A stretch of 64,000 nt of DNA from positions 10,664,001 to 10,728,000 of the forward strand of contig NC_135903.1 of NCBI RefSeq assembly GCF_964194155.1, written 5' to 3'. The stretch comes from Cetorhinus maximus (lineage: Eukaryota). Shown here one piece after another: positions 1 to 39,600 of the stretch. Numbering within the stretch: the stretch's first letter is position 1; each line of letters opens with the position of its first letter. Below the pieces are notes generated by a model. It saw nothing but the letters and a program-made list of their open reading frames with translations, made no database searches and had not been told where the DNA came from. Made by a program: the position numbers and the translations under genes.

Positions 1-1313
1 GAAATGTCCTCATTTCCCTGTTGGATTTGTTAGTAATTATGTTATTCTGTGTCAAAACCTATTCTCCCCTCAAAGAATCTGATATTCCAAATCTATCCAA
101 CGCTTGAATAGATCAGTCCTATATCTGGGCAGCTCTTCCATCACCTCTCTGTGCCTGCACCCGTGCATATGAGGATGATCCCAGGTTAAATTCCTAATCA
201 GCTGAGCTCAACTGAGGCTGCAGGAACTATCTTGTACATACAGCCCCTGGTTCTGGATTCTCCCACAAGTTGAAACATTCTCTCTATATTTATCCTGTCC
301 AACAAATCAATAATTTGAAAGACCATTTCAGGTCTCCTCTAAGGCTTCCCCTACAGAGGTCTAGTGGCTCAGTAGCTAGTGTCCCTACCTCTAAGCTAGA
401 AGCTCTGAGTTCAAGCCCCACTCTGGGACTTTTTGGTTACAAAAAGTGTGTTCATGATGTGGTTCAAGCAGGTTGATAATCAGCCTGCTAACCCTGCCAC
501 TACTCCCCAAAGTGGGGAAAAAGGTGTATGCAAAAATACAAAACAAATAAGTCTTTTTTTACCAAAGAATACTGGCACATATTGTGGTACAGGACTGGCA
601 CTTGGAGTGGCATCACAACAGAGCATGGTGCTGTCCCTATCAGGTGTCCACGAAGTTGCACTTTCCAGCAAGGGGTCACTGTGTAGCGATTAGGAGTAGA
701 AAATATATCTGAATCCTCATCTCTTAGCTTCCTCCCCAAAGAAAGTGATTGTAGTTTCTTCAATTAGGGCCTCAGTTGAGCTCAACTAACTAGTAATTGA
801 ACTTAGGCTCTTCCTCATCTGTATCAGTGCAGACAGAGCCTGGTGCAGAGGTTCTGGAAGAGGTCCCCAGATACAAGATTGACATTCAACTGTTGGATGA
901 TTTGGAGTGTTTTGAGGGGGGAACAGTTTTTGACACAGAATGAGAAAACCAGCTTCTCCAGCAGCTTCAGTCATGTGTGACTTCCACTTGGGATCCGAGG
1001 GGTTGACAAGGCCAGGGATGTTAATATCAGAGGGGGTTGGGGTGGAGCCGTCGAGGGGCAATGTTGGAAGCTGCTGATTAGACTTGTGTGAGTGATAAAG
1101 ACCTTGTGGGAGTGATTTACACCATTGCTGCCTAACAGGCAGCAGTTGCTTGGGTAGTTAGAATCCCCGGGTCAGTCACTCCCCACCCCACTAAACCACT
1201 GGTAGTTGACTTGAGATTTTAGAGAGGAGATGATAAGGATACTTACCCAAAACCAGCATCTATTAATCATACCTGTGTTTAACTTACTGTTCTTGGGTTT
1301 GTTTACTTTCTAG

Positions 1314-1400
1314 TGCAACTACTGAGAATGTGGAGAGAGAGCTAAATATGGACCTCAATACAGCTCACTCTGCCTGCTCAGTTCTTCAGTCAGTTAAAAG
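1314..1400 (+). CDS. GIP: GIP-like (gastric inhibitory polypeptide precursor) internal exon, equivalent to human exon 4
   Basis: tttctag| 87-nt exon |gtgagt. Only the phase-2 frame is open: xATTENVERELNMDLNTAHSACSVLQSVK+AG. Arg-Glu falls at the same position as in human DWKHNITQRE. Lies upstream of SNF8 on the same strand, as GIP does in human. Confidence 0.7.
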
Positions 1401-2161
1401 GTGAGTTGTAGCTTCTGAGACTATGTAAAATGAAGAAAGTAGGCAAATAACCATGAATAAACCCAATGGTCTGGCAATAATAACTCCAAGGGACAACAGT
1501 GAATATCTAATGACTTTGTTTTTTTTGTTTTCATCTTTGAAAGGCCTGCATTTATATAACCCCCTTCACAACCTCAGATATACCAAAGGCCTGAGTGTAG
1601 TCACTGTTTTAAGGTAGGAAAAATGACAGCCAATTTACACACAGCAAGCTCCTACAAACAGCAGTGCAATAATAGCCAGATAATTTGTACTAGTGATGTT
1701 AGGTGAGGGATAAATATTGATCAGTACACCAAGAAGAACAGCTCTGCTCTTCTTCTGATAGTGCTGTGGGAAATTTTGTCTCCCTGAGTGCAGGTGAGGC
1801 CTGGATTTAACGTTTGATCTAAAAGATGGTAACTCTGACAGTGCAGCATTCTCTCAGTAGTCAGCCTGGATTACGCACTCAAGTCCCTGAGTGGCACTTG
1901 AACTCACAATCATCTGACTCAGAGCAAGCGTGCTACCCAGTGAACCAAGGTTGATATTTACAAGCACAAGTAACAGAAACGTCAACCTACTTGTAATTCT
2001 GCAGGATGTTACCAAACGCATGTCTAGATGTCAGTGGCAGTACCAGAGGTTTCTAATCCTTCAGGATTGTCCTGGAATCTTCAGGAATTAAAGATAATAT
2101 TGGTTTATAATGTTCCTGTGAAGCGCCTGAGGACATTTTATTATGTACAGGTGTTACATAA

Positions 2162-2945
2162 GCCATAAGACCATAAGACATAGGAGCAGAAATTAGGCCT
2201 GATAAGTTTCTCAACCCCATTCTCCCGCCTTCTCCCCGTAACCTTTGATCCCCTTACCAATCAAGAACCTATCTATCTCGGTCTTAAATACACTCAATGA
2301 CCTGGCCTCCACAGCCTTCTGTGGCAATGAATTCCATAGATTCACCACTCTCTGGCTAAAGAAGTTTCTCCTCATCTCTGTTCTAAAAGGTCTTCCCTTT
2401 ACTCTGAGGCTGTGCCCTCGGGTCCTAGTCTCTCCTACTAATGGAAACATCTTCCCCACGTCCACTCTATCCAGGCCTTTCAGTATTCTGTAAGTTTCAA
2501 TCAGATGCCCCCTCATCCTTCTAAACTCCATCGAGTATAGACACAGGGTCCTCAAACGTTCCTCACATGTTAAGCCTTTCATTCCTGGGATCGTTCTCGT
2601 GAACCTCCTCTGGACCCTCTCCAGGGCCAGCACATCCTTCCTGAGATACGGGGCCCAAAATTGCTCACAATATTCTAAATGTGATCTGACCAGACCCTTA
2701 TAAAGCCTCAGCAGCACATCCCTGCTTTTATATTCTAGTCCTCTCGAAATAAATGCCAACATTGCACTTGCCTTCCTAACTACCGACTTAACCTGCAAGT
2801 TAACCTTAACAGAATCCTGGACTAGGACTCCCAAGTCCCTTTGCACTCCAGATTTCTGAATTCTCTCCCCATTTAGATAATAGTCTATGCCTCTATTCTT
2901 CCTACCAAAGTGCATGACCTCACACTTCCCCACGTTGTATTCCAT
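2162..2945 (-). mobile_element. Young 5'-truncated CR1 LINE (end of ORF2 plus microsatellite tail)
   Basis: Uninterrupted 244-aa ORF (KCEVMHFG...HLEYCEQFWAPY...RNFFSQRVVNLWNSLP) and (TCTTATGG)n tail. Confidence 0.92.
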
Positions 2946-4179
2946 TCTTTTTTTTTGCCAAAGTTGTTGCTGTTATTAATCTCCTGGGCGTTACTGTAAG
3001 GAACTCTTAATAGAAAAATCATAGAAAGCATTAAAAAGATGTGTTTTATTCATTTTCTTTAAACTCTCTTGTTATTAGTTATAAAAAGATTGGAGATGGG
3101 AAAGTAGGCTGTTTGACAGGGTGCGGCAGTTAGAGGCATTATGGTCACATGATGAAACCTCCAGGAATGTATCCAACTAGAGTTGGCGACACTGGGTAGC
3201 ACAGACTATCTTGAAGGCATAAGGGAGTTGGGATTTGCCTATGTTAGTGATCGAAAAGTCAGAGGTGGGAAATTCTGGAGAAAGTTAGCATTAAAAAAAA
3301 AGGCAACAAAATTAGAGCAAATCCTTTCAGTTCAGGGAGAAAACTGAAAAAAAAAACATGTTCTTAATGAGTTTGATGCAAAATTGGATGAATTTCTGAC
3401 TAAATGCACCACTGCGCTTCAACACCAGGGGTCATGTGTCACTTACTGGCCAGGAACCAGAAGTGGGAGTCCAGGAAGTGTTCTAATTAGTGCCAACAGA
3501 CAGAAAGGTAAAACTTTCATTTATATAATGCCTTTCATGACCTGAGAATGTCACAAAACACTTTATAATAATGTATTAATAGAATGTAAAATCTAAGACA
3601 GTTAAAGGTACACTCTCTTTACAAAATAGTGTTTGACAAAATCTTTTTCCTGCAATTATCTAAATAATGTAACGTTATTGATTCACTTTTGTACACTGCC
3701 ATTACAATAAATGAACTAGCATTTATACATCACCTTTCACATAGTCAAGGGTTACATGAATCAGAAAGGAAAGTGGAGTTGAGGCCACAATCAGATCAGT
3801 CATGATCTTACTGAATGGTGCAGCTGGCTCGATGAGCCGAATGTCCCACTCCGGCTCCTCAGTCTCGTGTTGTGTTCTTGTACTCGGGATGACCCAAAGC
3901 GTTTTACAGTCAGTCCCATACTTCGGAAGAGTGGTCACTGTTACAATGTAGAAAACACAGCAACCAATTTGCACACAGAAAACATTAACATTGCTAACAG
4001 CGATATGATCCTGAGCAGATAATCTGCTTTTGGTGATGTTGATTAAGGGATAGATATTGGCTCAGGATACGAGGAAGAATTCCCCTGCTCTTCTTGTAAT
4101 AACGCTGGAAGTAATAAACAGGGCCTCAGTTTAAGATCTCATCTGGAAAACGGCACCTTTGACTGCACAACACTGAAGT

Positions 4180-5100
4180 AACATGGAAACATAGAAAATA
4201 GGAGCAGGAGTAGGTCATTCAGCCCCTCGAGCCTGCTCCACCATTCAATACGATCATGGCTCATCCTCTATCTCAACGCTGTACTCCTGTGCTCTCCCCA
4301 TACCCCTTGACGCCTTTAGATCTAGAAATTTATTTATTTCCTTCTTAAATATATTCAGTGACTTGGCCTCCACAGCCTCTGTGGTAGAGAATTCCACAGG
4401 TTCATCACCCTGAGTGAAGACGTTTCTCCTCATCTCAGTCCTAAATGGCCTACCCCATATCCTGAGACTGTGACCCCTTCTTCTAGATCACCCCCAGCCA
4501 GAGGAAACATCGTCCCTGCATCCAGTCTGTCCAGCCCTGTCAGAATTTTATACGTTTCAATGAGATCTTCTCTCATTCTTCTAAACTCCAGTGAATACAG
4601 GCCTAGTCGGCCCAATCTCCTCATACGATAATCCTGCCATCCCAGGAATCAGTCTGGTGAACCTTCGCTGCACTCCCTCTATGGCAAGTATATCCTTTCT
4701 TAGGTAAGGAGACCAAAACCGCACACAATACTCCAGGTGTGGTCTCACCAAGGCTCTGTACAGCTGCAGTAAGACATCTTTGTTCCTGTACCCAAGTCCT
4801 CTCGCAATGAAGGCCAAGGTACCATTTGCCTTCTTAACTGCTTGCTGCACCTGCATGCTTGCTTTCAGTGATTAGTGTACAAGGATACCCAGGTCCCTTT
4901 GTACATCAACATTTCCCAATCTATCACCATTTAAATAATACTCTGCTATTCTGTTTTTCTGACCAAAGTGGATAACTTCACACTTATCCACATTTATTGT
5001 ATCTGCCATGTATTTGCCCACTCACTCAACCTGTCTAAATCACCTTGAAGCCCCTTAGCCGAATAGCCTATTTCTGCTCCTATGTCTTATGGTCTTATGG
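4180..5100 (-). mobile_element. CR1 LINE fragment with an oppositely oriented CR1 tail at 5055-5100
   Basis: ORFs 4581-4856 and 4430-4624 (RPHLEYCVRFWSPYL), with tail repeats at both ends. Confidence 0.88.
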
Positions 5101-5160
5101 TTTCTTCTATTTTCACTGAGTTCTCCCATTCAGTGATTTCCACTATGTTTTATATTTTAG

Positions 5161-5262
5161 TGGTACTTGATCTGCAGATCCTGCTTATTCTCTCCTGAGA
5201 GATCAGCTTATCCAGGAGTTGCTGGACAGACTTAGAATTACCATTGAGGCCACCAACCAAAA
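5161..5262 (+). CDS. GIP: GIP-like exon 5 equivalent (C-terminal propeptide) with in-frame TGA at 5168-5170
   Basis: tattttag| acceptor. Phase-2 frame reads SGT*SADPAYSLLRDQLIQELLDRLRITIEATNQK versus human SSPAKNPSDEDLLRDLLIQELLACLLDQTNLCRLR, without gaps. 102 nt, followed by gcaagc at the expected donor position. Confidence 0.7.
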
Positions 5263-5540
5263 GCAAGCTGCTCACATGTCTGCCCTGAAAGGACATGAAA
5301 TGGGGAGGGGGGAGAGGCCGGTACCATAAAACAGTGACGGACAATGATCACTTGATGAACATTTTCTAACATGAAGCTCAACTCAAGCCCATATCCTAAC
5401 CCCATCACTCTTGGGCTCACTCAGAATTCCCAGACTGGCAACATCCTGATTTTTGAATCCAATCCTTGTCTTCCATTCTCTCCTTGGCCTTGCACTATAT
5501 CAAAAATGCTATATAAATGCAAGTCATTGATGCTGTTGTT

Positions 5541-5835
5541 GAGGAACAGCACCTTATCTTTCTACTAGGCACATTACAGCCTTCCAGCCTCAACCTTGAG
5601 TTAAACAACTCCAGATCGTAAGCACCCCTTTCCTTAAACAACTGTTGTGTGAATGGAGCTCCTGGGAGTGGAGGAGGTGTGGGCTGATTCTTGGGGTGGG
5701 GACCGCCAATGGTACATGGCTGGTGGTGACCTCCCACCACCACATTCTGCAAGCCATTTCCTCTTTACCAAATTTTCCACATTTCCCTCTCCCTCTGCTA
5801 GTCTGCCAGTCACCATTTACACTTTTTGTTCACAT
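5541..5835 (+). mobile_element. Penelope-like element fragment (end of the GIY-YIG endonuclease plus 3' region)
   Basis: EEQHLIFLLGTLQPSSLNLELNNSRS* at 5541-5621. Confidence 0.7.
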
Positions 5836-6098
5836 CTTTTGTGTCATTGTTTTAATGTAAGAAACATAGCAGTCAAGATGCACACAGCAAGCTCCCACAA
5901 ACAATAGTCTGATAATGACCAGATAATCTGTTGTTAGGATATTTATTAGCCAGGACACTGAGGAGAACCCTCCTACTCTTCTTCAAAATGATTCCATGGG
6001 ATCTTCCAAATCTACCTAAGAGGACAAGGCAGGGCCTCAGTTTAACTTCTCACCTGAAAGACACCACCTCTGACAACGCAGCATTCCCTCAGGACTGG

Positions 6099-6705
6099 AA
6101 TAGAAGCTGGAAAAGCTCAGCAGGTCTGGCAGCATCTGTGGAGAGAGAAGCAGAGTTATGTTTTGAGACCAATATGACTCTTCTTCTGAACTGAAGAGAG
6201 GTAGAAATGTGATGGTTTTATGCTGTTGTAAAAGGGGGGAGGGGCAGGTGGAGCAAAAGGGAAGGTCAGGGATAGGTTAGAGGGTGGGGGAGATTAAATG
6301 ACAAATATGTCATGGATCAAAAAGCAAAGAGAATGGTAAAGCAACCGAGATTGGTCCAGCGATGGTGTTAATAGCAGAGTAAAGGTCAGCACTATCTGAA
6401 AGCAAAACATGAGAACAAGATACACAAGAGGCACGAGGGGAAAAAAATTCCAAATGGAGGACAGAGTTCATGGTCTCAAGTTGTTGAACTCAATGTTGAG
6501 TTCAGAAAGTTGTAAAGTGCCTAATTGGAAGATGCGGTGCTGTTCCTCCAGTTTGCTCTGAGCTTCATTGGAATATTGTAGCAGGCTGAGGACAGAAATC
6601 TAAGCGTGAGACCAAGATGGGGAATTAAATGGCAAGGGACCAGAAGGTCGGGGTCATGCTTGCAGACTGAACAGAGGTGCTCCGCAGTCAGCCAGTCTGA
6701 GGTCT
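6099..6705 (-). mobile_element. Penelope-like element fragment nested in a SINE
   Basis: Minus strand SVLSLLQYSNEAQSKLEEQHRIFQLGTLQLSELNIEFNNLR. SINE sequence stops at ~6098 and resumes at ~6710. Confidence 0.72.
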
Positions 6706-7710
6706 CCCATAGTACTGCACTGGGAGCGTCATAGATTCATACATCACCATTCCATCACTGTCACTGGATCAAAATCCTGGAACTCCTTCCCAAACAGCAC
6801 AGTGGATGTACTACATGGAGTGCAGCAGTTCAAGCAGGTGGCTCACCATCATCTTCTCAAGGACAATTAAAGATGGGTAATAAATGTTGGCCTTGCCAGC
6901 GATGGCCACATCTCATGTAAATATTTAAAAAGTGCAGGATGAGGCCATTCAGCCTATTATGCCTGTGCTGGCTCTTTGAAAGAGCTATCTAATTAGTCCC
7001 ATTCCACTTCCCTTTCCCCACAGCCCTTCATTTTCTTCCCTTTCAGTATTTTTATCCAATTCCCTTTTGAAAATTATTATTGAATCTGTTTCCATCACTC
7101 TTTCAGGCAGTTCATTGCAGGTCACAACAAATCAATGTGCAAAAAAAGTCTCCTCATCTCATCTCTGATTCTTTTGCCAATTATCTTAAATCTGTGTCTT
7201 CTCGTTACTGACCCTTCTGCCACGGAAACAGTTTCTTCTTATCTATTGAAACCCTGACAGAAAAAGACCATTCAGCCCAACCAGGCTATGCTGGCATTTA
7301 TGCTTTGCTCAAGCCTCCTCCAATCCTTCATCCTTGAACGTTGTCAATATAACCCTCTATTCCCTTCTCCCTCATTGCTTGTCTAGCTTCACCTTAAACT
7401 ACTCCCTGTGGTACTGAGTTCAACATTCTCACCACTCTCTAGGTAAAGAAGATTTCTTTGAATTCACTATTTGATTTATTGGCGACTATCTTATATTGAT
7501 GGCCTTGTTTTGCTCTCACACAAGCGGAAACAAGTGTCTAATCTACCAAAACCTTTCATAATCTTAAAGATCTTTATCGGTGGCTTGTGCTCAGTGACTT
7601 CCTCCGAAGTTAAGGTATGAAGGAATTAAAGATGTGAATCCGTGCATGGAGGCTTTGTTGAACAGAGAATATAATTGGTTCCTCCTCTCACCCATGTGTG
7701 TTTCTTATAG

Positions 7711-7870
7711 GATCCAGGGAGCTGAGTGATATGATCACCAACTTGAAACTTGCCAATCACAAGAATGGCTTCACGGATACAAGTTAATCTTTGTCTTAGC
7801 AAATTTATAAAGATTTAGAAAAATGTAAATGTGATCAGTTAAATAATAAAAATCTACTCACCCCAAAACC
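7711..7870 (+). other. GIP: Candidate terminal exon of the GIP-like gene (ancestral stop TGA 7727-7729, AATAAA 7845-7850)
   Basis: tttcttatag| acceptor. The phase-2 frame gives (K)IQGAE*, a very short coding tail like human exon 6, with AATAAA ~115 nt later in unique sequence. Confidence 0.5.
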
Positions 7871-8769: not shown

Positions 8770-9077
8770 GAGGGAGAATCGCTGATATTGGGGTTACTAC
8801 TTTATCCGCTGGTGTTGCCATTAAATTCGCTGCGGGTTTTGTTGCCGCCTCCGTGTCGCAGGCGGATGGAGTCAGTGTGGAACCGGCAACAAGGCGGAGC
8901 CGGAGACCGAGACAGAGACGGGGAAGCGGGGCAGGACTGGAGAGCGGAGCTGGTGAATCGGGTTCCCGGTTTCTGATTATTGTCTTTCAGCAAAAAAAAA
9001 ACCAGACCCAAAGTTCTGCAAAGATGCACAGAAGGGGAGTTGGAGCCGGTGCCATCGCCAAGAAGAAACTGGCAGAA
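8770..9077 (+). promoter_or_regulatory. CpG-rich promoter / 5' UTR of SNF8
   Basis: Local GC and CpG enrichment ahead of the ATG in otherwise CpG-poor DNA. Confidence 0.7.
9024..9077 (+). CDS. SNF8: SNF8 coding exon 1
   Basis: aagATG; [18 protein letters not shown] |gtaagt. Confidence 0.97.
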
Positions 9078-12000
9078 GTAAGTTACAATCTATTGCCCTT
9101 TTCCTCAGCGGGTACAATCTATTGCCCCTTATCCCCAGTCAGAATCCATTGCTCCATTTCTCCATTTACAATCTATTTCGTCTCTCTCCAGTCTATTTCC
9201 CCCTGCTCCAGTTACAATCTATTGTCCCATTTCCCCAGTTACAATCTATTGCCCCATTTCCCCAGTTACAATCTATTGCCCCATTTCCCCAGTTACAATC
9301 TATTGCCCCTTTCCCCATCAGTCACAATCTATTGCCCCATTTCCCCAGTTACAATCTATTGCCCCATTTCCCCAGTTACAATCTATTGCCCCATTTCCCC
9401 ATCAGTCACAATCTATTGCCCCATTTCCCCAGTTACAATCTATTGCCCCTTTCCCCATCAGTTACAATCTATTGCCCCATTTCCTCAGTTACAATCTATT
9501 GCCCCATTTCCCCAGTTACAATCTATTGCCCCATTTCCCCAGTTACAATCTATTGCCCCATTTCCCCAGTTACAATCTATTGCCCCATTTCCCCAGTTAC
9601 AATCTATTGCCCCTTTCCCACCAGTGTTGTGTGCCTGTTTTGTGAAAGGAGCTGTATAAATCTTAGTCTTTCATGAAGGGAGTTCCAATTTAAAAGACGA
9701 AGTGTGTAGTCCTGTATATTTCACACACCGGGGTGTCTTGGCACAGTATTATATACTGTTTCTATCGTGGATATTGCTGAAAGGAGAGACACGTTGCCAA
9801 AGCTGTTCCCCTTGGAATCACCAGGAAAAACACAAGCAGGCCAAATTTCAAAGGATCACAATTATACTGCAGGAGAAGAGGGTGTTGTAGTATAAATTGC
9901 GATCCTTTGAGCTTTGGCATTCTTGCATTTGTCCTGAGGAATGCAAGAGGAAAAGCTTTGGCAATATGTCTCTCTTTTCAGCAACATTCAAGTTCTGTTC
10001 TGCCAGGTGACTGTTTCTATCTTGTTAGTTGTATCAGAGATAAATATTTATTTAAAAACACAGGCAATGTTTAGTGTCACTTATAAAAATGAGCGTACTA
10101 TACCTATAAAGGATTTGGTTTTGGGGAGGAGGAGCATATTAAAGCATAGCCTGTCAGGAGGAGAGGGATTGTTGCCTTGTCAAACTAATATTAGAGGATC
10201 AGTGAATGGAGGACGTGCATCTTGCAGAGAAAATCAGCGCTGCTGGGCCTGCCTCCATGGGTAGTATTCTTCCACCCCCCACCGCCCCACACCCCGAGTA
10301 AAAAGGTGATAGGTACAAGCCCTGTTCTAGAGATTTGAGCACAAAACCTAGCTTCACATTCCAGTGCAGCACTGCCACTCAAAACAAATCCTGTGTAAAA
10401 AATCGCCAGAACTTTCCAACAAGCACCAAGATGTAGCTTGGCTGGTGGTGAGAAAGGCCCTCCCCGTCAGATCCTTCCAACATGCCAGGAGTCTCACCCC
10501 CTCTGCACATTGCCCTCGAGGTTGCTGTGGTGGGGAAGAGACCGTTGTTCACCTCCTTGTGGATTGTGCCTTTGCAAAGAAGGTCTGAAGAGAGATGCAG
10601 TGGTTTCTGTCGAGGTTCATCCCGAGCAGTTCTGTGACACAGGACTCCGTGCTCTATGGGCTGTTCCCAGGGACACACACCAAGACAAACATCAACTGCA
10701 GCTGGAGGATCATCAACTCAGTAAAAGACGCTCTTTGGTCAGCCCAAAACTTGTTGGTCTTCCAGTGCAAAGAGTTGTCCACGACCGAGTGTTGCAGACG
10801 GGCACATTCCAAGGTCCAGGACTACGTGCTGAGGGACGCACTAAAGCTTGGGGCAGCCGGCACAATGTGGAAAGGTCGCTGTCTAAGACCTTTCTGCCAT
10901 AGTGCACTGAGAGGCTGGGAACTGTTGAGAGCCCCTCGGGCTGTACAGTTCAAAATGAATGTATGCATTAAATACTAAATGTATTATAATTGTATTGAAG
11001 CACCTCAGAGTGCAACATGATGTATGTTGATAACTCCAATACCATTGCACCTCGTGATCCATGTGTAAAAGTTGAATATGATTGCACTTTTTGTGATGGC
11101 AATTTAGAAATGTTTTGTATTGTTCTTTCAGATATTTTATGAATAAAGTATATTTTATGAATTTAAAAAAATCCTGTGTATGAATATTGAAATATAACTT
11201 CTGACTTCCATTTTTTAAAATTAGAACTGTCCTTAAAAAAACAAGTGTTTGCATTTATATAGTGCCTTTCCAGCCTCAGGATATCTCGAAGGGCTTTAAA
11301 GCTAATGAAGTATTTTTGAAGTGTAGTTACTGTTGTAAAGTAGGAAAAGTGGCAGCCAGTTTGGTGCAGAGCAAGCTCCACAAATCATAACCAACATCAC
11401 AAAAACAGATTATTTGGTCAAGGGATAAATATTGTCCATGACACCAGGGATAACACTCCCCTAATGTTCTTTGAAATAGTGACAAGGGATCTTCTACGCC
11501 CACCTGAAAGGGCAGATGGGCTTCAGTTTAATCCGAAAGACAGTACCTCATACAGTGCAGCACTCCCACAGTACTGCACTGGGAGCGTAGGCCTGGATTA
11601 TTTGCTCATGTGCGGTATGGGACTTGAGGTAAATGTTATTGACTCACAAGACACCCAGGACATCTTTGTCTGCATGCACTGTTAGGATGGTTTCAGTGGC
11701 CTGGGAGATGGAGGGGGTGGTAAATCAGCCAGAGTCTTTGCTCTGTTCACAATTTGGTGATACCTGCTGAATGGTTGATGAGAACGGGACCAATCTTTGC
11801 AGTGATCAGCCTGCTCGTTCCTATGTGAATTGCCCTCCAATCCAGGGCCAGATGTAGAGTTCTGACTTGGGCATACTGAGCTACAGGAGGGTGCGAAAAA
11901 GGAACATGAGAACTAGTGATGGGGAATTGATGGAAAGGGATTTTGCAGATCACTGTAATACTGTTGTTAATTGGAACACTGTAGTACAAAGTACCATGGA

Positions 12001-15000
12001 GAGACCTTGAGGTTAAAATCTAGGCTGACACAACCAATGCAGGATTGAGGGAACATGGCACTGTCAGGGTTGTCATCTTTTGGATGAGACATTAAACCAA
12101 AGACATTCTGCCTGCACTCTTGGATCACAATGGCACTATTTTGAAGCAGAGTAGGGAAGTTAGTCTTGGTGTTATAAGTCCAATATTTGTCCCTCAACCA
12201 CCATCACAAAAAACAGTTTATCTGGTCATTATCAGATTACTGTTTGTGGCATCTTGCTATGTGCAAATTGGTTTTTGTGTTCCCTACATTCCAACACTGG
12301 CTTCATTTCAAAAGTTCTTCTTTGGCTGTGAAGTGCTTTGGGATGTCCTCAGATCGTGAAAGGTGCTATAGAAAAGCAAGTCTGCCTGTGTTTGCTTTCT
12401 TAATCTGTCAATGTTATTTTGCTGCCTAACATTTCCTAACTGGATTTGCTTTAGGCCAAATATAAAGAGCGAGGAACAGTGATGGCTGAAGATCAGCTGG
12501 TTCAGGTGAGTGGATATACTCTTAAACTCAATCAATTCATTGATCTTTTTACTGTCTGATGCTGACACTTTTAGTTTCAGCACCTTCTAGTACTGAGGGA
12601 CCAGTGGTCCTTGTGATCCAAATCTTACTGAATTTTTCTCACTGTGCAGATGTCAAAGCAGCTGGAAATGTTCAGGACACATCTGGAGGAATTTGCCAGC
12701 AAGCACAAGCAGGAGATTCGGAAAAGCTCACAGTTTCGTGTTCAGTTTCAGGACATGTGTGCAACAATTGGAGTGGACCCCCTCGCTTGTAATCCTGTTT
12801 ACTCATATCTCTCCAATTTCCTTTTGACTTCCCATCTCCCCTGATCTCAGAGTGTTTGGGTCATTCTAGAGAGAGCTTTACTCTGTATCTAACCTCGTGC
12901 TGTACCTGTCCTGGGAGTGTTTGATGGGGACAGAGTAGAGGGAGCTTTACTCTGTATCTAACCCCGTGCTGTACCTGTCCTGGGAGTGTTTGATGGGGAC
13001 AGAGTAGAGGGAGCTTTACTCTTTATCTAACCCCGTGCTGTACCTGTCCTGGGAGTGTTTGATGGGGACAGTGTAGAGGGAGCTTTACTCTGTATCTAAC
13101 CCTGTGCTGTACTTGTCCTGGGAGTGACGGGGACAATGTAGAGGGCGCTTTACTCTGTATCTAACCCCATGCTGTACCTGTCCTGGGAGTGACGGGGACA
13201 GTGTAGAGGGAGCTTTACTCTGTATCTAAGCCTGTGCTGTACCTGTCCTGGGAGTGTTTGATGGGGACGGTGTAGAGGGAGCTTTACTCTGTATCTAACC
13301 CTGTGCTGTACTTGTCCTGGGAGTGACGGGGACAATGTAGAGGGCGCTTTACTCTGTATCTAACCCCATGCTGTACCTGTCCTGGGAGTGACGGGGACAG
13401 TGTAGAGGGAGCTTTACTCTGTATCGAACCCTGTGCTGTACCTGTCCTGGGAGTGTTTAATAGGATGGTGTAGAGGGAACTTTATTCTGTATCTAAACCA
13501 ATGCTGTACCTGTTTGGAAGTGGTGATGCAATTTGGGAGGAGTTTTTAAAGAGTTCTGTTTCTCTGCATTAATGAACAAAGAAAATTCACTCAAAAATGA
13601 TGTCATATATACAAGTTTATTTTTAATTTCCTATATGCAGCTGGCAAAGGATTCTGGTCGGAGATGCTGGGCGTTGGAGACTTTTACTATGAACTGGGAG
13701 TGCAGATTATTGAAGTGTGTCTGGCTCTGAAACACAGAAACGGAGGTGAATCTCTCATTATCAGTTGTTTGTCAGTTCGGTGATTTGCTTGAGGCTGTGG
13801 CCATGAGCAGAGATATCATTGTACTTTAACCCAGGTTGAACTCTTGTTTTCTGAATGCAGCCTGTTGCAGGGTTCTAAAGTGCAGAACTTTAGTTTAAAA
13901 TGTGTGGGAATCTGTTGTGCAACTACAACTTGCATTTATATAGCGCTGTTAATGTAGTAAAGCACTTTTCTAAATCTGATACTGAGTCACATAAGGAGAT
14001 ATTGGTACAGGTGACTGAAAGCTTGGTTAAAGAGGTAGGTTCTAAGGAGTGACTTGTAGAAAGAGAGAGCTAGAAATATGGAGGGGTTTAGGGAGGAAAT
14101 TCCAGAGGTTAGGACCCAGGCGTATGAAGGTACAGCCACAGTGGTGGAGCAATGAAAATTGGAAATGCGCGCGAGGCAGATTTTGGAGGTTGGTGGGGCT
14201 GGATGTTACAGAGATAGGGAAGGGGCGAGACCATGGAGGGATTTGAACACAATGTTAAGACTTTTAAAACTGTAGCGTTGCTGGACTGGGACCTAGTAGT
14301 AGGTCAGCAAGCATGCAGGTGATGGGTGAGCGGGAGTTGGGCGAAAATGATTGGGAAAAGTTTCTCATGCTGTATCCTTAACTTTGCCAGGTCTGATCAC
14401 ACTGGATGAGCTGCACCAGCGTGTGCTCAAAGGTAGAGGCAAGTTTGCTCAAGACGTCAGTCAGTGAGTACAACTGAGAACCCTGAATGAAGTGGATTGA
14501 TTCATTGACTAAGTCTGCTCCTGCCCTCATTACCATGGGACTAACTGTTATTGTTCAGTAACCAAGATCAGCTGAGATTACATTTCAGACTCGGAGAAAT
14601 TTAGAGCACAGCAGGAAGCCATTTGGCCCATCGTATTTATACTGGTTCTTTGAAAGGTGCACTGATAGAATGTTGATAGGAGTTTGGAGCTCTCTTCAAA
14701 CGGCAATTGATTCTTGATCAGTTGATAATTTTAAATCTGAAATTGATCGATTTTTGTTAGCCAAAGGTAGTTCGGGATATCAGAAAAAGGCAGGTATATG
14801 GAGTTAGGTTGCAGATCAACCATGATCTTATGGATTGGTGGAACAGGCTTGAGGGACTAGATGGCCTCCTGTTCTGTTGTTGACATTGACTGATTTTATT
14901 AATTCTGACGCCCACCTACCCTTTGAGCAATGACTTTGGCCCAACTTCTTCCTCTCTTACCTTCCATATCCAGGGACGATCTCATTCGGGCCATAAAGAA

Positions 15001-17749
15001 ACTGAAATCCTTGGGTAATGGCTTCAGTATAATCCCAGTGGGAGGCAGGTACCTGGTGCAGTCTGTCCCTGCAGAGCTTAACATGGATCATACGGTGGTG
15101 CTGCAGATTGCTGAGGTAAGTGACGTCATTTGTTTTGTGAGGCTGCTGTTGGACTGAGAGATTATTCAGTAACAACCTGCACCTTTTCATGTAGTAAAAT
15201 GTCCCAAGGTACTTCACAGGAGCAATTGTGAAATAAAATTCAACACATAAGGAGATATTAGGACAGGTGATCAAAAGCTTGGTCAATGAGGTTAGTTTGA
15301 AGGAGTGGCTTAAAGGAGGAGAAGGAGGAAGAGACTTGGAGAGACGTAGGGAGGGAATTCCAGAGTTTAGGGCCTAGGCGGCTAAAGGTATGGCCACCTA
15401 TGGTAGAGCAACTAAAATTGGGGATGTGTAAGAAGGTACGTGTGCGAGAGAGATGCCGTGTTCAGGTTTTGTAAGGTGACCTAAGGTGACAGAGCTGTCC
15501 TTGCAACCCCCTTGTTTTTTTTTTTGCCTTCGCATCATTCACACACTTCAGATCAAGCTTGTGTGTAGGCTCCCTCCCTTATTGTTCTGGATTGGGTACT
15601 GAAGCCAAGAAAATGCATTTTAAGCACGTGATGGAGGGTATGTTTCTCCTCGAGGCCTTAATGGTAAAGAAAGATTTGCATTTATATAATGCCTTTCATG
15701 ACACTCCAAAATGCTTTTTTTTTCTTTCATGGGATGTGGGGGTGACTGACTAGGCCAGAATTTATTGCCCATCCCTAATTGCCCTTGAGGTGGTGGTGAG
15801 CTGCCTTGAACTGCTGCACCCACGTGGTGTACGTACACCTACAGTGCTGTTAGGGAGGATGTTCCAGGATTTTGACCCAGTGACAGTGAAGGAATGGTGA
15901 CCTAGTACCATGTAGGGATGGTGTGTGGCTTGGAGGGGAACTTGCAGGTGGTGGTATTCCCATGTGTCTGCTGCCCTTGCCTTTCTAGGTGGTAGAGGTC
16001 ACAGGTTTGGAAGGTGCTGTTGAAGGAGCCTTGGTGAGTTGCTGTCGTGCACCTTGTAGATGGTACACATTGCTGCCACTGTGCATCAGTGGTGGAGGAA
16101 GTGGATGTTAAAGGTGGTGTCAATCAAGCAGGCTTTTTTGTCCAGAATGGTGTTGAGCTTAGTGTTGTTGGAGCGGCACTTCTCCAGGCAAGTGGAGAGT
16201 CTTTCATCACACTCCAGACTTATGTCTTGTAGATGGTGGATAGGCTTTGGGGAGTCAGTTTAATGTTCTCATTCATAAGACAATGCCTCTGGTGCAGCAC
16301 TCCCTCAGTACTGCACTGGGAATGTCAGCTTAGATTCTTGTGCTCAAGTTTCTGAAGTGGGACTTGAACATGTGACCCTCAGACTCAGGGGAGGTGTTAC
16401 CCACTGAGCCCTTCAAACTGTACTTGATCACAGTGATGAGACAAGACAAAGGGCATGAATGAGAAACTGGGGGTAAAACTATCCTCCGTCTGTTGTTTCA
16501 CAGCATTTTTGTTATGATGTGGAGATAAATCAAACTCATCCACTTCATGTCTTACAGAAAAATGGATATGTGACAATCAGTGAAATTAAATCCAGCCTGA
16601 AGTGGGATACTGAACGCACTAACCAGGTGTTGGTACGTATATCTATACACCTGATGCAGTATTCTCTCTCTCTTAGTGTCCTATTCTGTTATGGTCAGGA
16701 TTAGACTGTCCGCTGATGCTAACCGCATTCCACCTTTCATAACCTGATAGAACGAGGGGGAATGGTATCACTGGAGTGAGCCGGAGTCACAATGTTGATT
16801 CTATTTCTCTATCAAAACGTGGATCTGCTTCTATTTGCAAAGCTGCTTTCTTTCAAATAAGAGACACTGCTAATAAAGAATGAATGGCCCATCTAAATTA
16901 ACAATGCCTGTCAGCAAGTTTAAACTACAGTTTCAAAATTCCTGCCTATAAAACATTGAATATCTCATGGTGTCCATTGGCAATGGAATGCTTCCAACAA
17001 ACTGTTGGACCTCACTTGATCATACATTGGAGTCAGTTGGAATACCATAGATTGAAACAAAGATGAAAGGGTGGAGAAATCTTCCCTTGTGATCTTGGTC
17101 CACAGTGATTAGTCAAAATAGCCACTTTCAATATGGATGATAAATATGAAGCATGTCAATAAAAGCACTGGTCATTATACTTTGTACGGACTTGGATCTG
17201 TAGGAAAACTTCAGTACAATACCTTCCTTTAGTTCTTGGTTAAAAGTTGCTGTTCACGTTCAACACTTTCATATTTTAGATTCTTCATGACTTTTCCACC
17301 TTAGCAAGTTACCTAGAATTATTGTATTTAAAGCACAATCACAGGTCCATGCCAGTATTCATGCTCCCACCCTACTTTATCTCACGCCATCAACATATCC
17401 TTTCTCCCTCATGATTAACTAGTTTCCCATCCATGCTTGTCACCTCAAACACTCCTTATAGTGTTGAGTTCCATTATCTCACCACTCTCAAAAGTAGTTT
17501 TATTTTAATTACAGCTTGGGAGAATGGGAAATTAGCTGATTCCCATGAATAAATAGTCAATAAGTTAATTGAGAACTGTGTCCTAAACCTTAGAGTTATA
17601 ACCTCTTTCAGGAACATTTGTTGAAGGAAGGCTTGGCGTGGATTGACAAACAAGCTCCTGAAGAGCCTCAGTACTGGTTGCCTGCACTCTTCTCTGATCT
17701 ATACTCCCAAGATGTCACTCCAGAAGAAGCTGATGAAAGTTTGCCGTGA
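9024..17749 (+). CDS. SNF8: SNF8 / EAP30 / VPS22, ESCRT-II subunit; 8 coding exons, 777 nt, 258 aa
   Basis: Exons 9024-9077, 12455-12505, 12650-12788, 13641-13745, 14391-14463, 14974-15115, 16558-16632 and 17612-17749 join in frame: [25 protein letters not shown]...[25 protein letters not shown]. Confidence 0.98.
9081..9620. repeat. 27-bp minisatellite at the start of SNF8 intron 1
   Basis: Unit AGTTACAATCTATTGCCCCATTTCCCC, ~19 copies, with occasional ATC-insertion variants. Confidence 0.95.
10398..11168 (+). mobile_element. 5'-truncated Tx1/L1-clade retrotransposon with 12-bp TSD
   Basis: C-terminal zinc-binding region [29 protein letters not shown]..., AATAAA and A-tail. AAATCCTGTGTA at 10386-10397 and 11169-11180. 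Confidence 0.85.
12455..12505 (+). CDS. SNF8: SNF8 coding exon 2
   Basis: ctttag| [17 protein letters not shown] |gtgagt. Confidence 0.97.
12650..12788 (+). CDS. SNF8: SNF8 coding exon 3
   Basis: gtgcag| [46 protein letters not shown]+T |gtaatc. Confidence 0.95.
12872..13515. repeat. 65/69-bp tandem repeat in SNF8 intron 3
   Basis: Unit GGAGCTTTACTCTGTATCTAACCCCGTGCTGTACCTGTCCTGGGAGTGTTTGATGGGGACAGTGTAGAG, ~9.5 copies. Confidence 0.95.
13641..13745 (+). CDS. SNF8: SNF8 coding exon 4
   Basis: atgcag| (S)[34 protein letters not shown]+G |gtgaat. Confidence 0.97.
14391..14463 (+). CDS. SNF8: SNF8 coding exon 5
   Basis: tgccag| (G)[23 protein letters not shown]+CA |gtgagt. Confidence 0.97.
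14974..15115 (+). CDS. SNF8: SNF8 coding exon 6
   Basis: atccag| (Q)[47 protein letters not shown] |gtaagt. Confidence 0.97.
15720..16258 (-). mobile_element. 3' fragment of a CR1/L2-group LINE in SNF8 intron 6
   Basis: Same 3' sequence as the 48055-50190 and 54300-55340 copies. Confidence 0.82.
16558..16632 (+). CDS. SNF8: SNF8 coding exon 7
   Basis: ttacag| [25 protein letters not shown] |gtacgt. Confidence 0.96.
17612..17749 (+). CDS. SNF8: SNF8 coding exon 8 (stop)
   Basis: tttcag| [48 protein letters not shown]. Confidence 0.97.
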   Translation, partial: EHLLKEGLAWIDKQAPEEPQYWLPALFSDLYSQDVTPEEADESLP

Positions 17750-36600: not shown

Positions 36601-39600
36601 ATGTGAAGGGCTGACTGTTGCTCTGTGCTTGTGAAATTGTATAGCTTCAACATCAGGGTCTCTTCATATGTGATCCAGGTTCCTGACACATTTCTTAGAA
36701 ATTTCAAAAAGCTATTTGCAAATATGAGACAAAATAAGGGATGGTTTAAGATGGGGGAGGAGGAGGGTTGGGGTGGGGGAATGTGAATCCCTTAATTGAT
36801 TTTTGTCTTTGGATTTAGCCCCAAATTTACTCAGTAGTTTACAGGCCAGGCCTGTTATTTACCCACAGCCCATTATTTTATATGCATGATCCACTCTTAG
36901 CTGTGATTTAATCTGTGCATACCCAAGTATGCTGAGGCACACTTTGCCATTCCGGTAGAAGTTTGGGTTAAACCGCACAGTGCTGTTTCCAGTTGTCATG
37001 AGCTTGACTCTCGGTGGGTGGATAGGATAGTCAGGAGGGCAGCGAAAGAGAAAAAGAAAAAAGCCTCCTTCATAAGGCGTGTCGAAAGGTCCTGTAATTA
37101 GTGCGTGAATCTGCAGGGAAAAGAAAAAGAACAGCAGTCCCAGTAAAGTAAATGCCCAGTAAAGTCTGCAGGGGGAAAGTTTCGAGTGTAAAATGGTGGA
37201 ATACATTAAACTGGTACCAAAACACTTTCTTATTGCATCCAATAGAGCATTACAATTACCACTACATCAACATCTCCCCATTATGGAAATGCTACTGGAC
37301 TAGTAATCCAGAGGCTCAGGCGAATGCTCTGGGGACACGGGTTCAAATCCCATCACAGCAGCTGGTGGAATTTAAATTCAATTAATTAATTACTCTGGAA
37401 TTGAAAGCTAGTCTGAGTAATGGTGCTCACGAAATTATCAATTGTTGCAAAAACCCATTTGGTTCACTAATTTTTAAAAATTCATTAACGGGGTGTGGAC
37501 GTCACTGGCTAGGCCAGCATTTATTGCCCATCCCTAATTGCCCTTGAGGAGGTGGTGGTGAGCTGCCTTCTTGAACCGCTGTAGTCCCTGTGGTGTAGGT
37601 ATACCCACAGTGCAGTTAGGGAGGGAGTTCCAGCATTTTGACCCAGCGACAGTGAAGGAACGGCGATATATTTCCAAGTCAGGATGGTGAGTGACTTGGA
37701 GGGGAACTTCCTGGTGGTGGTGTTCCATGTATCTGCTGCCCTTTTCCTTCTAGATGCAAGTGGCTCTCTAGAGAAGGAAATCTGCCATCCTTGCCTGGTC
37801 TGACCCACAGCAGACTCCAGACCCACAGCAATGTGACTCTTAACTGCCATCTGAAATGACCTAGCAAGCCACTCAGTTCAACAGCAATTAGTGATGAGCA
37901 ACAAATGCTGGCCTTGCCAGCGACGCCCACATCACCTGAAAGAATAAAGAAACAAAATCTTGATCTTCATCCTCCCTGTGCACTTTACAACTAATTGGAA
38001 GGAGCATCCTAAGGTAAAGTTGGAAATTTCCAGGTTCAATTCCTACCATGTACTGAGTAAGCTGATCTCAGTTAGGGAAGAATAAGACCCGTTTCAGGGC
38101 TACTGGGTTAGAGGTGGGGGAGACAGGGCGGGTGGTGCTGGCTATCAGCTGGAATTCCAGATCTAATTCATATTTGTCTGATCATTTTCTTGCTGGGGGC
38201 ATTGTAGTGGAGTACAGTTTATGCACATTCCTGCAAGGGGTTCAGTGGACCACTGCGGCAAGAGCCCTGGCTAATTTCCTCATCCCTGACAAGTCTCCCT
38301 GCCTTCCGAACCCAGGAATCCCACAGCCAATTGCAACACAACTACCACCCTGGTATTTACCCATTAGGCCAGTACATATCAATGATTTCTGGGTTTGTAA
38401 GTTTGAGTACCACACGAAGCAGTATGTACAAATCAACCCTTCAGGGCAGCTGCAGTAAATTTCATTCCCTAAACACAATCTGGCTGATGTTTCTCTTTAT
38501 AACATTGTGTTGTAATGATGTAAAAAAAAATCTTCCAAATGCACACTTCCTGTGAACTTTTACCACTGTAAATTCACATGTCCACTTTTGTAATACAAAA
38601 GGTGTATGTAAACTTCTTACACTCTAAGTGAAGTGCAATCCACTTCCTGTGCTGTAATGTCACTGAAAGAAGGGTGCGATTATCTGGTAATACGTTCACA
38701 CAAGCAGCTTCCATTATAAATATTGTTCCAGAAATTTGTAATGGAATATAGAAAAATCTGACTGTAAAATGGGGAGTGAATTACATCTGCACACATGATC
38801 TGCTACCTTCAAACTTTGTTTCGCCTGATCACCACACTATTCCACGATTCAGTGCATGCAACACCACAGACATTGTGTAGCTTTAATTTTATCTATACAT
38901 ATGGAATCATAGAATGATACAGCACATAAGGCCATTCGGCCCATCATGCCTGTGCCAGCACTTTGAAAGAGTTATCCAATTAGACCTATTCATGTGCCCT
39001 TTCCCCAAAGCTTTGCAAATTTTGCCTTTTCAAGTATTTATCCAATTCCCTTCAGAAAGTTACTACTGAATCTGCCCTTTCAGATAATGCATTCCAGATC
39101 GTAACAACTCACTACTTAAAATATTCTAATATTATCTCTGGTTTTTGCCAATTAATTTAAAATAAATATATACTGGAGTAATGAATCCAAAGCTTTAATA
39201 TTGTTCAGATAATGCTGGAAACACTCAGCATTGGTTAATGCTTCAATTTCTGATGTAAGATTACAAAACTAAAACATTAACTTTATTTCTCTTCACAGAT
39301 GCTGCCTGACGGGCTGAGTACTTCCAGCATTTTCTGTTCATATTTCAGGTTTCCATCATCTGCAGTTATTTTGTCTTTTAACGTTCTAGCTGTTTGGATG
39401 CTACATTAAATACTGCACCGTGCACCAGGTAACACATCTCCATCGCACCTTAGTCATATCTTGCGGGTCTGGGACAACAAACATCCCTGGTGGTGGTTCT
39501 TTGTAAATAGACATGATATCCCTGCAGCACAAAATAAAGCAAAATATTAAAACATATTGAATGTTAAATTTGCAAAAGAATGGAAGAAAATGACAACCCG

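What the first reader, a model, noticed from the sequence alone, without database searches (positions are those of the whole stretch)
1314..7870. Hidden GIP-like incretin gene: three 3' exons, an in-frame TGA and a GC donor
Seen: three exons with good acceptors, all phase 2. The middle one encodes LLRDQLIQELL. Established (recalled): human preproGIP has LLRDLLIQELL in a 102-nt phase-2 exon 5, and GIP lies next to SNF8 on the same strand. Here the motif sits at the same offset (11 residues from the junction), and the 102-nt boundary falls exactly on AA|gcaagc. The Arg-Glu that ends GIP(1-42) is kept in the 87-nt exon. However, the fourth codon (5168-5170) is TGA, upstream of the best-conserved motif. 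Inference: either a functional allele with a truncated C-terminal propeptide and intact hormone, or incipient pseudogenisation, or readthrough, or a base-call error. The hormone exon itself lies upstream of this window.
Basis: partly seen in the sequence, partly recalled or inferred. Interest (0 to 1): 0.8.

Follow-up and report, generated by a model that had tools for sequence, protein, structure and literature searches.

The report
Broken GIP hormone gene in shark
This shark's gene for the gut hormone GIP has a stop codon inside the hormone itself, and a wrecked relic of what is probably its receptor lies elsewhere in the genome, so this lineage seems to be losing a whole insulin-boosting hormone system that other sharks still keep.

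Summary
The three exons, the TGA at 5168-5170 and the GC boundary are real, and the gene is the shark GIP orthologue: it lies between an IGF2BP gene and SNF8, and its exons match GIP of whale, bamboo and zebra shark. The 'intact hormone' reading fails. The hormone exon, about 690-565 bases upstream of the window, has a TAA at hormone position 26 (Leu in orthologues), seen unchanged in contigs of a run of the same species. The gene has also lost one dibasic cleavage site, altered the other, and lacks a 13-residue segment kept by carpet sharks and a frog; its hormone evolved faster than the whale-shark one (6 versus 0 sites, p=0.03). No second copy was found. An unplaced contig carries five exons of a glucagon-family receptor with two TGA stops and no TM2-7, beside MBOAT7: probably the relic of GIPR, which the literature calls lost in cartilaginous fish. 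Best reading: a unitary pseudogene decaying after receptor loss (0.8). Rival: a secreted 25-residue peptide (0.12). The exon-5 TGA itself, fixation of either stop, and expression were not verified.

The parts
1..1313 (+). In-window part of intron 3. The 5' half of the gene lies UPSTREAM of the window on G000 C26 (window base 1 = C26:10,664,001): TATAAA hexamers at C26:10,661,840 and 10,661,862 (candidate promoter; non-coding exon 1 not located); exon 2 at C26:10,662,197-10,662,282 (86 nt, ATG at 10,662,209, open signal peptide MLTPRFLVLLLSIMGSIWANEIES); exon 3, the hormone exon, at C26:10,663,311-10,663,436 (126 nt: LSIRGEPLEKR, YSEAMLASDYSKIAEAIMNKKFVDM, in-frame TAA at C26:10,663,420-422 = hormone residue 26, then IAAN; five residues with the first dibasic site missing); one ATTAAA at C26:10,663,534; IGF2BP-family ATG on the minus strand at C26:10,583,180.
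   Evidence: TAA matched by X1 contig piece L017:1200-2233, depth 70, 0 differences; Leu at that position in 5 of 5 non-mammalian orthologues
1314..1400 (+). Exon 4 (87 nt): ATTENVERELNMDLNTAHSACSVLQSVK; Glu-Arg where carpet sharks have Lys-Arg
   Evidence: 11/25 to 12/27 identical
1401..5160 (+). Intron 4, with reverse-transcriptase-like repeat fragments; no trace found of the 13-residue segment that carpet sharks and a frog encode between the exon-4 and exon-5 homologies
   Evidence: best scores at shuffled level; no valid positive control
5161..5262 (+). Exon 5 (102 nt): GT*SADPAYSLLRDQLIQELLDRLRITIEATNQ, C-terminal propeptide
   Evidence: 21/32 identical to each of 3 carpet-shark GIPs
5168..5170 (+). 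In-frame TGA (precursor codon 99), Arg in 3 of 3 carpet sharks; downstream of the TAA, so without effect on the hormone
   Evidence: not verified in reads
5263..5268 (+). GC donor GCAAGC; the only GT(A/G)AG or GC(A/G)AG pentamer in 5161-5400; probably old and leaky: two carpet-shark models end 5 residues after this point (as splicing to 7711 gives), the third reads through it
   Evidence: splicing inferred, no RNA
7711..7870 (+). Exon 6: IQGAE, stop at 7727-7729, AATAAA at 7845-7850
9024..17749 (+). SNF8, downstream neighbour on the same strand (synteny marker)
   Evidence: exon positions; human SNF8, E 1.7e-18
36859..37266 (-). Ubiquitin-conjugating-enzyme exon, facing SNF8; the name UBE2Z is recalled from human synteny
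   Evidence: UQ_con, E 8.7e-17

Best explanation
A unitary pseudogene of GIP. The gene keeps its six-exon frame (signal peptide, Lys-Arg, hormone, C-terminal propeptide) but no longer yields a working hormone. Shown: a TAA at hormone residue 26 removes Leu26/Ile27 of the receptor-binding helix; further lesions lie downstream (TGA in exon 5, first dibasic site deleted, second changed to Glu-Arg, one 13-residue segment not found). Inferred: a spliced mRNA would be degraded by nonsense-mediated decay (stop 203 nt before the last junction); any 61-residue product would release a weak 25-mer. Inferred history: the receptor gene GIPR was disabled (relic on contig C2197: five exons, two TGA codons, no TM2-7), constraint on the ligand relaxed in the lineage shared with catsharks, and nonsense codons followed in this species' branch, while carpet sharks kept a conserved GIP.
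For: TAA in the assembly and in an X1 contig with 0 differences over 1,034 bases. Leu at that position in P0001, P0003, P0005, P0006, P0016. Phe22, Ile/Val23 and Leu26 are the conserved ECD-binding face (PMC3679108, PMC3500760; passages). One match only when G000 is searched with the hormone exon (1 candidate of 1 scored). Residues 1-25: whale shark 20/25 identical to frog, this gene 14/25, catshark 10/25; 6 changes private to this gene against 0 private to whale shark, binomial p=0.031. Hormone exon no better conserved than the propeptide exon (23/35 and 21/32 against carpet sharks). In organism B the exon-3 donor has drifted from AG|GTAAGT to TG|GTAAAC. Only three glucagon-subfamily TM3 exons among 19 matches, 47 of 47 candidates scored; four such ECD exons among 44 HRM matches, 34 of which I fetched and translated, one with a stop. 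Gipr reported lost in cartilaginous fish (PMC8312260, passage).
Against: No frameshift in five exons, ATG, signal peptide, first Lys-Arg and all splice sites intact: decay is recent or partial. Both changes listed for organism B before the stop are synonymous (chance about 0.07 if neutral; 135 rows were not shown, so the list is incomplete). GIP(1-14) can fully activate GIPR at micromolar levels (PMC3500760), so a 25-mer need not be inert. X1 may be the sample the assembly came from, and contigs drop rare alleles, so fixation is not shown. The state of the TAA and TGA in organisms B and C could not be read. The relic's identity as GIPR is not settled: exon 3 scores GLP1R and GCGR 47 bits, GIPR 41; exon 4 scores GCGR best and does not list GIPR; only the TM1 exon puts GIPR first, by 1.6 bits. 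The rate test was chosen after seeing the alignment and rests on 25 sites.
Confidence: 0.8

Rival explanations
1. Shortened but working gene: the transcript ends in intron 3, escapes nonsense-mediated decay, and the TAA replaces C-terminal cleavage, so a 25-residue GIP is secreted and acts on another receptor (GCGR or the C15 receptor); exons 4-6 are the only dead part.
For: Exons 2-3 open up to the TAA; ATTAAA about 110 nt past the stop; 2 of 2 listed pre-stop changes in organism B synonymous and its exon-3 donor decayed; the catshark record P0001 also ends at exon 3, as a 31-mer ending in Gly; short GIP fragments keep some activity; cross-activation is common among non-mammalian glucagon-family receptors (PMC10753361, passage).
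Against: Leu26 lost and Trp25 changed; rate acceleration in residues 1-25; ATTAAA is at chance frequency (1.6 such hexamers per kb of intron); the exon-3 donor here is a perfect consensus; P0001 is an unverified gene prediction; no RNA evidence (X15 has no depth on the bins holding exon 3 or exon 5).
Confidence: 0.12
2. A null allele carried by this individual; the species still has an intact allele.
For: One assembly and one probably identical sample; contigs collapse alleles.
Against: Two nonsense codons plus other lesions on one haplotype; the TAA-bearing contig has the same depth (70) as neighbouring unique contigs (67-83) and runs 1,034 bases unbroken.
Confidence: 0.06
3. One reading: intact hormone with a truncated C-terminal propeptide, or read-through or base-call error.
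For: The exon-5 TGA alone is unverified in reads and would not touch the hormone.
Against: The TAA lies inside the hormone and is matched by run X1; TAA is the least leaky stop and neither stop has a read-through context (established knowledge, recalled).
Confidence: 0.02

Closest known systems
GIP of carpet sharks: Rhincodon typus XP_048470622.1, Chiloscyllium punctatum GCC29389.1, Stegostoma tigrinum XP_059494639.1
   Same: Signal peptide, Glu-Lys-Arg before Tyr1-Ser-Glu-Ala, 16/25 identity in residues 1-25, exon-4 and exon-5 homology, same length of tail after the GC site; the zebra-shark model reads through the same GC site (27/40 identical).
   Different: They are open 154-161 aa precursors with Trp25-Leu26, Lys-Arg at 30-31 and 43-44 and a 13-residue segment before exon 5; here TAA at 26, TGA in exon 5, no site at 30-31, Glu-Arg, segment not found.
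Scyliorhinus torazame GCB67362.1 (P0001, 78 aa, hypothetical protein)
   Same: Closest match for exons 2 and 3 (18/24 and 25/40); shares Met25, the propeptide form and the five-residue gap; also fast-evolving (11 against 1 private sites, p=0.006).
   Different: No stop at 26; Phe at position 1; the record stops at the end of exon 3, so its 3' exons are unknown to me.
Human GIP and GIPR (PMC12259236, passages)
   Same: Six-exon gene with most of the hormone in exon 3; closest solved structure is the GIP-based agonist in 7vbi (E 1.2).
   Different: Human gene is functional, GIP(1-42) and (1-30)NH2; GIPR has 14 exons on chromosome 19, against five broken exons in the C2197 relic.
Joint loss of GIP and GIPR in most teleosts (PMC3679108, passages)
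   Same: Ligand and receptor lost together.
   Different: There both genes are gone; here both are still readable as relics, and sister sharks keep an intact ligand.

Membership tests
Vertebrate GIP orthologue | Position between an IGF2BP gene and SNF8/UBE2Z | tested here: met
   the human gene order is recalled
Vertebrate GIP orthologue | Closest proteins are annotated GIPs | tested here: met
   3 of 4 hits are GIP-type (names; P0002 is an unrelated repeat protein); 3 hits of 1,049 candidates
Vertebrate GIP orthologue | Signal-peptide exon, hormone exon and C-terminal exons, all phase 2 | tested here: met
Vertebrate GIP orthologue | Tyr1, Glu3, Asp9, Phe22, Val23 after a basic cleavage site | tested here: met
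   defining residues from PMC3500760 passages
Functional GIP hormone | Open frame through Leu26 to at least residue 29-30 | tested here: not met
   TAA at 26
Functional GIP hormone | Dibasic C-terminal cleavage sites as in other sharks | tested here: not met
   30-31 site deleted, 43-44 site reads Glu-Arg; a single Arg remains
Pfam Hormone_2 (PF00123) | Score above the 21.2-bit cut-off | tested here: not met
   14.3 bits; missed among 10 matches of 68 candidates in the genome search
Functional GIP hormone | Expression in gut endocrine cells and receptor activation | not testable with these tools
   the one RNA-guess run laid (X15) has no depth on exon 3 or exon 5 bins; tissue unknown
Unitary pseudogene | Disabling lesions | tested here: met
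   two nonsense codons; TAA matched in X1, TGA assembly only
Unitary pseudogene | No intact copy elsewhere in the genome | tested here: met
   1 match of 1 candidate; the assembly may be incomplete
Unitary pseudogene | Lesion fixed in the species | tested here: inconclusive
   one sample, contigs only
Unitary pseudogene | Neutral evolution of the coding sequence | tested here: inconclusive
   rate acceleration p=0.031 against 2 of 2 listed synonymous changes in organism B
GIPR (for the C2197 relic) | Glucagon-receptor-subfamily extracellular domain and TM1 | tested here: met
GIPR (for the C2197 relic) | Closer to GIPR than to GCGR, GLP1R, GLP2R or GCRPR | tested here: inconclusive
   disagree between exons; only mammalian references were available
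GIPR (for the C2197 relic) | Position in the human chromosome 19q paralogon | tested here: inconclusive
   neighbour is MBOAT7, single copy; its human position on 19q13 is recalled; one neighbour only, contig unplaced
GIPR (for the C2197 relic) | Complete seven-helix coding sequence | tested here: not met
   two TGA codons, TM2-7 exons not found on the contig, and no fourth TM3 exon genome-wide

The most novel reading that the evidence does not exclude
The stop at residue 26 is a redesign, not a loss: after GIPR died, this shark lineage kept exons 2-3 as a short transcript that secretes a 25-residue GIP needing no C-terminal cleavage and signalling through another glucagon-family receptor, while exons 4-6 and the GIPR relic decay.
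Probability: 0.12. Interest if true: 0.72.

Novelty: new member of a known kind. Interest (0 to 1): 0.47.

Why it matters
The open-access statement I could read says GIP is found in most vertebrates while its receptor was lost in cartilaginous fish and birds (PMC8312260), which leaves open why sharks keep the ligand. This locus shows they do not all keep it: whale-shark GIP is 80% identical to frog in residues 1-25, the catshark copy is drifting, and this species' copy is broken. A readable five-exon relic of the probable receptor makes the order and date of ligand and receptor loss testable across shark genomes, and suggests that 'Gipr absent' partly hides relics on unplaced GC-rich contigs. 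With no GLP1R found either, this shark may lack both classical incretin receptors, though that rests on an incomplete assembly. It is a specialist result in endocrine evolution, not a new mechanism.

Tried and rejected
Pfam search of the genome found proglucagon, VIP, GHRH, PACAP and secretin loci (names from reading the translations) but missed this exon; a glucagon-based profile scan over 164 kb also missed it; looser motifs found it. Word-indexed protein searches were weak: 0 of 33 candidates, 1 of 44, 3 of 1,049, so the absence of other shark GIPs from these lists says nothing about their genomes. Alignment A1 held a row one base out of frame and was replaced by A2. Search for the missing 13-residue segment: best score 13 in protein space, 1.9 in DNA space against a shuffled maximum of 12.5; my intended positive control scored -20.7 and is not valid. 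Read laying (4 of 24 listed runs): could not read the TGA in X1 (the listed piece starts at L017:7127), nor either stop in B or C; X15 gave repeats only. The ELNMD match between exon 4 and SNF8 is chance (score 20, shuffled maximum 22). The C15 receptor first looked like GLP1R but lies tail to tail with IFT140 and 8 Mb from a FAM83 gene, which fits GCRPR better (FAM83G link from PMC3679108 supplement; FAM83G name recalled). 200 kb around SAYSD1 hold no receptor exon, but neighbours there look rearranged, so this does not prove GLP1R loss. Atlas searches gave no usable hit for the relic exon and only a 0.81 lead (TMEM204) for the C15 neighbour. Earlier findings of the scan: none. No fold or complex prediction was run.
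Full report
OBSERVATION. The three exons are as described: 1314-1400 (87 nt), 5161-5262 (102 nt, TGA at 5168-5170, boundary AA|GCAAGC) and 7711 onward (stop 7727-7729, AATAAA 7845). Exon 5 scores 96-105 and exon 4 44-49 against 3 of 3 carpet-shark GIP proteins, above shuffled maxima of 34-38 and 33-38.

IDENTITY. The window is G000:C26:10664001-10728000. In 100 kb upstream a motif scan found the hormone exon at C26:10,663,311-436 and a signal-peptide exon at C26:10,662,197-282. The 36 open residues of the hormone exon gave 4 hits among 1.84 billion proteins: a catshark protein, whale-shark GIP (cluster with bamboo and zebra shark), vole GIP, and one unrelated repeat protein. An IGF2BP gene starts 80.8 kb upstream on the other strand, SNF8 follows at 9024, and a ubiquitin-conjugating enzyme faces it. 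This is the GIP orthologue. Exons 2 and 3 are closest to the catshark protein and share Met25 and a five-residue gap with it, so the animal is a shark nearer to catsharks than to carpet sharks (inference from one gene).

LESIONS. After Lys-Arg the exon reads YSEAMLASDYSKIAEAIMNKKFVDM and then TAA (C26:10,663,420-422), where 5 of 5 non-mammalian orthologues have Leu26. Phe22, Ile/Val23 and Leu26 form the conserved face that binds the receptor's extracellular domain (PMC3679108 and PMC3500760, passages). The TAA is codon 62 and lies 203 nt before the last junction, the usual trigger for nonsense-mediated decay (established knowledge). Downstream: the Lys-Arg at 30-31 of carpet sharks is deleted, the one at 43-44 reads Glu-Arg, a 13-residue segment present in carpet sharks and the frog Ascaphus was not found in intron 4, and Arg at precursor codon 99 is TGA. 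There is no frameshift. A genome search with the exon returns only this place.

READS. I laid 4 of the 24 listed runs. X1 (organism A) has one contig piece over L017:1200-2233 with depth 70 and no difference, so the TAA is not an assembly error; X1 may be the source sample and contigs drop rare alleles, so this is neither independent nor proof of fixation. The listed X1 piece for exon 5 starts 7 bases after the TGA, so the TGA is unverified. Organism B shows three listed changes in exon 3 (two synonymous before the stop, one in the junction codon) and two more in the donor, giving TG|GTAAAC; the TAA lies near contig ends there, and 135 rows were hidden, so its state in B and C is unknown. X15 has no depth on the exon-3 and exon-5 bins.

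RATES. Over residues 1-25 whale shark matches frog at 20, this gene at 14, catshark at 10. With frog as outgroup, 6 sites are private to this gene and 0 to whale shark (p=0.031); 11 and 1 for catshark (p=0.006). The hormone exon is no better conserved than the propeptide exon (23/35, 21/32). Against this, the two synonymous changes in B have a neutral chance of about 0.07.

GC DONOR. It is the only donor-like pentamer in 5161-5400. Splicing to 7711 adds five residues and a stop, the same length as in the whale- and bamboo-shark records; the zebra-shark record instead reads through with a sequence matching the intron start here. The site is therefore probably old and leaky, not a lesion. No RNA shows it.

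RECEPTOR. PMC8312260 (passage) states that Gipr was lost in cartilaginous fish and birds. A hormone-receptor-domain search gave 44 matches (106 of 106 candidates scored); I fetched and translated 34 and found four glucagon-subfamily exons. Three belong to genes with open matched exons: C25:48.58 Mb (GCGR-like), C25:11.8 Mb (GLP2R-like) and C15:82.8 Mb (the first two names rest on my reading of the translations). The C15 gene scores best with GLP1R but sits beside IFT140 and 8 Mb from a FAM83 gene, which fits GCRPR (PMC3679108, section 6 and supplement passages). The fourth, on unplaced contig C2197, is a relic: signal exon, three extracellular exons and the TM1 exon (minus strand, about 42,815-35,304), with a TGA in exon 3 and another in TM1, and no TM2-7 exon on the contig or among 19 genome-wide TM3 matches. 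Its neighbour is the single MBOAT7, on human 19q13 by recall; human GIPR is on chromosome 19 (PMC12259236). Sequence alone does not decide: TM1 ranks GIPR first by 1.6 bits, exon 3 GLP1R/GCGR, exon 4 GCGR, exon 2 is non-significant. I put GIPR at about 0.7. Its stops were not checked in reads.

MECHANISM. Most likely (0.8) the gene is a unitary pseudogene: receptor disabled, ligand freed from constraint, nonsense codons gained later. The order is inferred; carpet sharks keep a conserved GIP, so either they retain a receptor or GIP there acts on another one. The main rival (0.12) is a short transcript ending in intron 3 and secreting a 25-mer; GIP(1-14) can activate GIPR at micromolar levels, but the only ATTAAA is at chance frequency.

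LITERATURE. Ten full-text searches (listings of at most 20 each) showed no title or abstract start on a shark GIP pseudogene or a GIPR relic. I read passages of PMC8312260, PMC3679108 (also section 6 and supplement passages), PMC4362833 (no GIP transcript in catshark pancreas, brain or liver; gut not among the three tissues), PMC12259236, PMC11931254, PMC3500760, PMC12714231, PMC5207463 and PMC10753361. The key survey of Gip and Gipr (Irwin 2020, PMID 31582191) is not held; I recall it as saying cartilaginous fish keep conserved Gip genes without Gipr, and it or its supplements may already mention broken copies.

VERDICT. Observation confirmed, interpretation partly supported. A new case of a known kind (ligand-receptor co-loss), of real interest to comparative endocrinologists; interest 0.47.

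Noticed in passing
G000:C2197:35304-42815 (-) (L056, L057): Five-exon relic of a glucagon-family receptor with two TGA codons and no TM2-7, beside MBOAT7; probable GIPR pseudogene.
   Followed up: partly
G000:C15:82.82-82.86 Mb (L061-L064); C12:28.78-28.98 Mb (L097-L116): The receptor that looks like GLP1R by best hit lies beside IFT140/TMEM204 and is probably GCRPR; no true GLP1R was found in the assembly, and no GCRP ligand appeared among the 10 Hormone_2 matches.
   Followed up: partly
G000:C15:82889922-82890227 (+) (L081/L082): An inverted near-copy of one transmembrane exon of the C15 receptor, about 50 kb from the original.
   Followed up: no
P0001 (Scyliorhinus torazame GCB67362.1): Highly diverged GIP with Phe1; the predicted frame ends ...Asn-Gly-stop at the exon-3 donor, which would give an amidated 30-mer if unspliced.
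   Followed up: partly
P0004, P0007-P0015: Vole GIP records carry two or three tandem copies of the hormone exons and lack the last propeptide exon in the 4 of 10 read.
   Followed up: no
window 2211-2972 and 4581-4871 (-): Reverse-transcriptase-like repeat fragments inside GIP intron 4; very high contig depth there.
   Followed up: no
G000:C11:77.763-77.767 Mb (L012): Only three glucagon-like exons of proglucagon were matched, while four are described for cartilaginous fish (PMC8312260); the fourth may have been missed.
   Followed up: no
G000:C311:341169 and C355:317083; C3:98163329 and 98204102: Calcitonin-receptor-like extracellular exons occur as identical or near-identical pairs, on two unplaced contigs and twice on C3 (one downstream match with a TGA); haplotigs or duplications.
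   Followed up: no
L017:7097-7126 (window 5147-5176): The X1 contig over exon 5 has its first 30 letters unlisted, exactly across the TGA; contig overlap or a real allele difference, unresolved.
   Followed up: partly
window 1338-1352 and about 15073-15087: Exon 4 and SNF8 share ELNMD; at chance level.
   Followed up: yes
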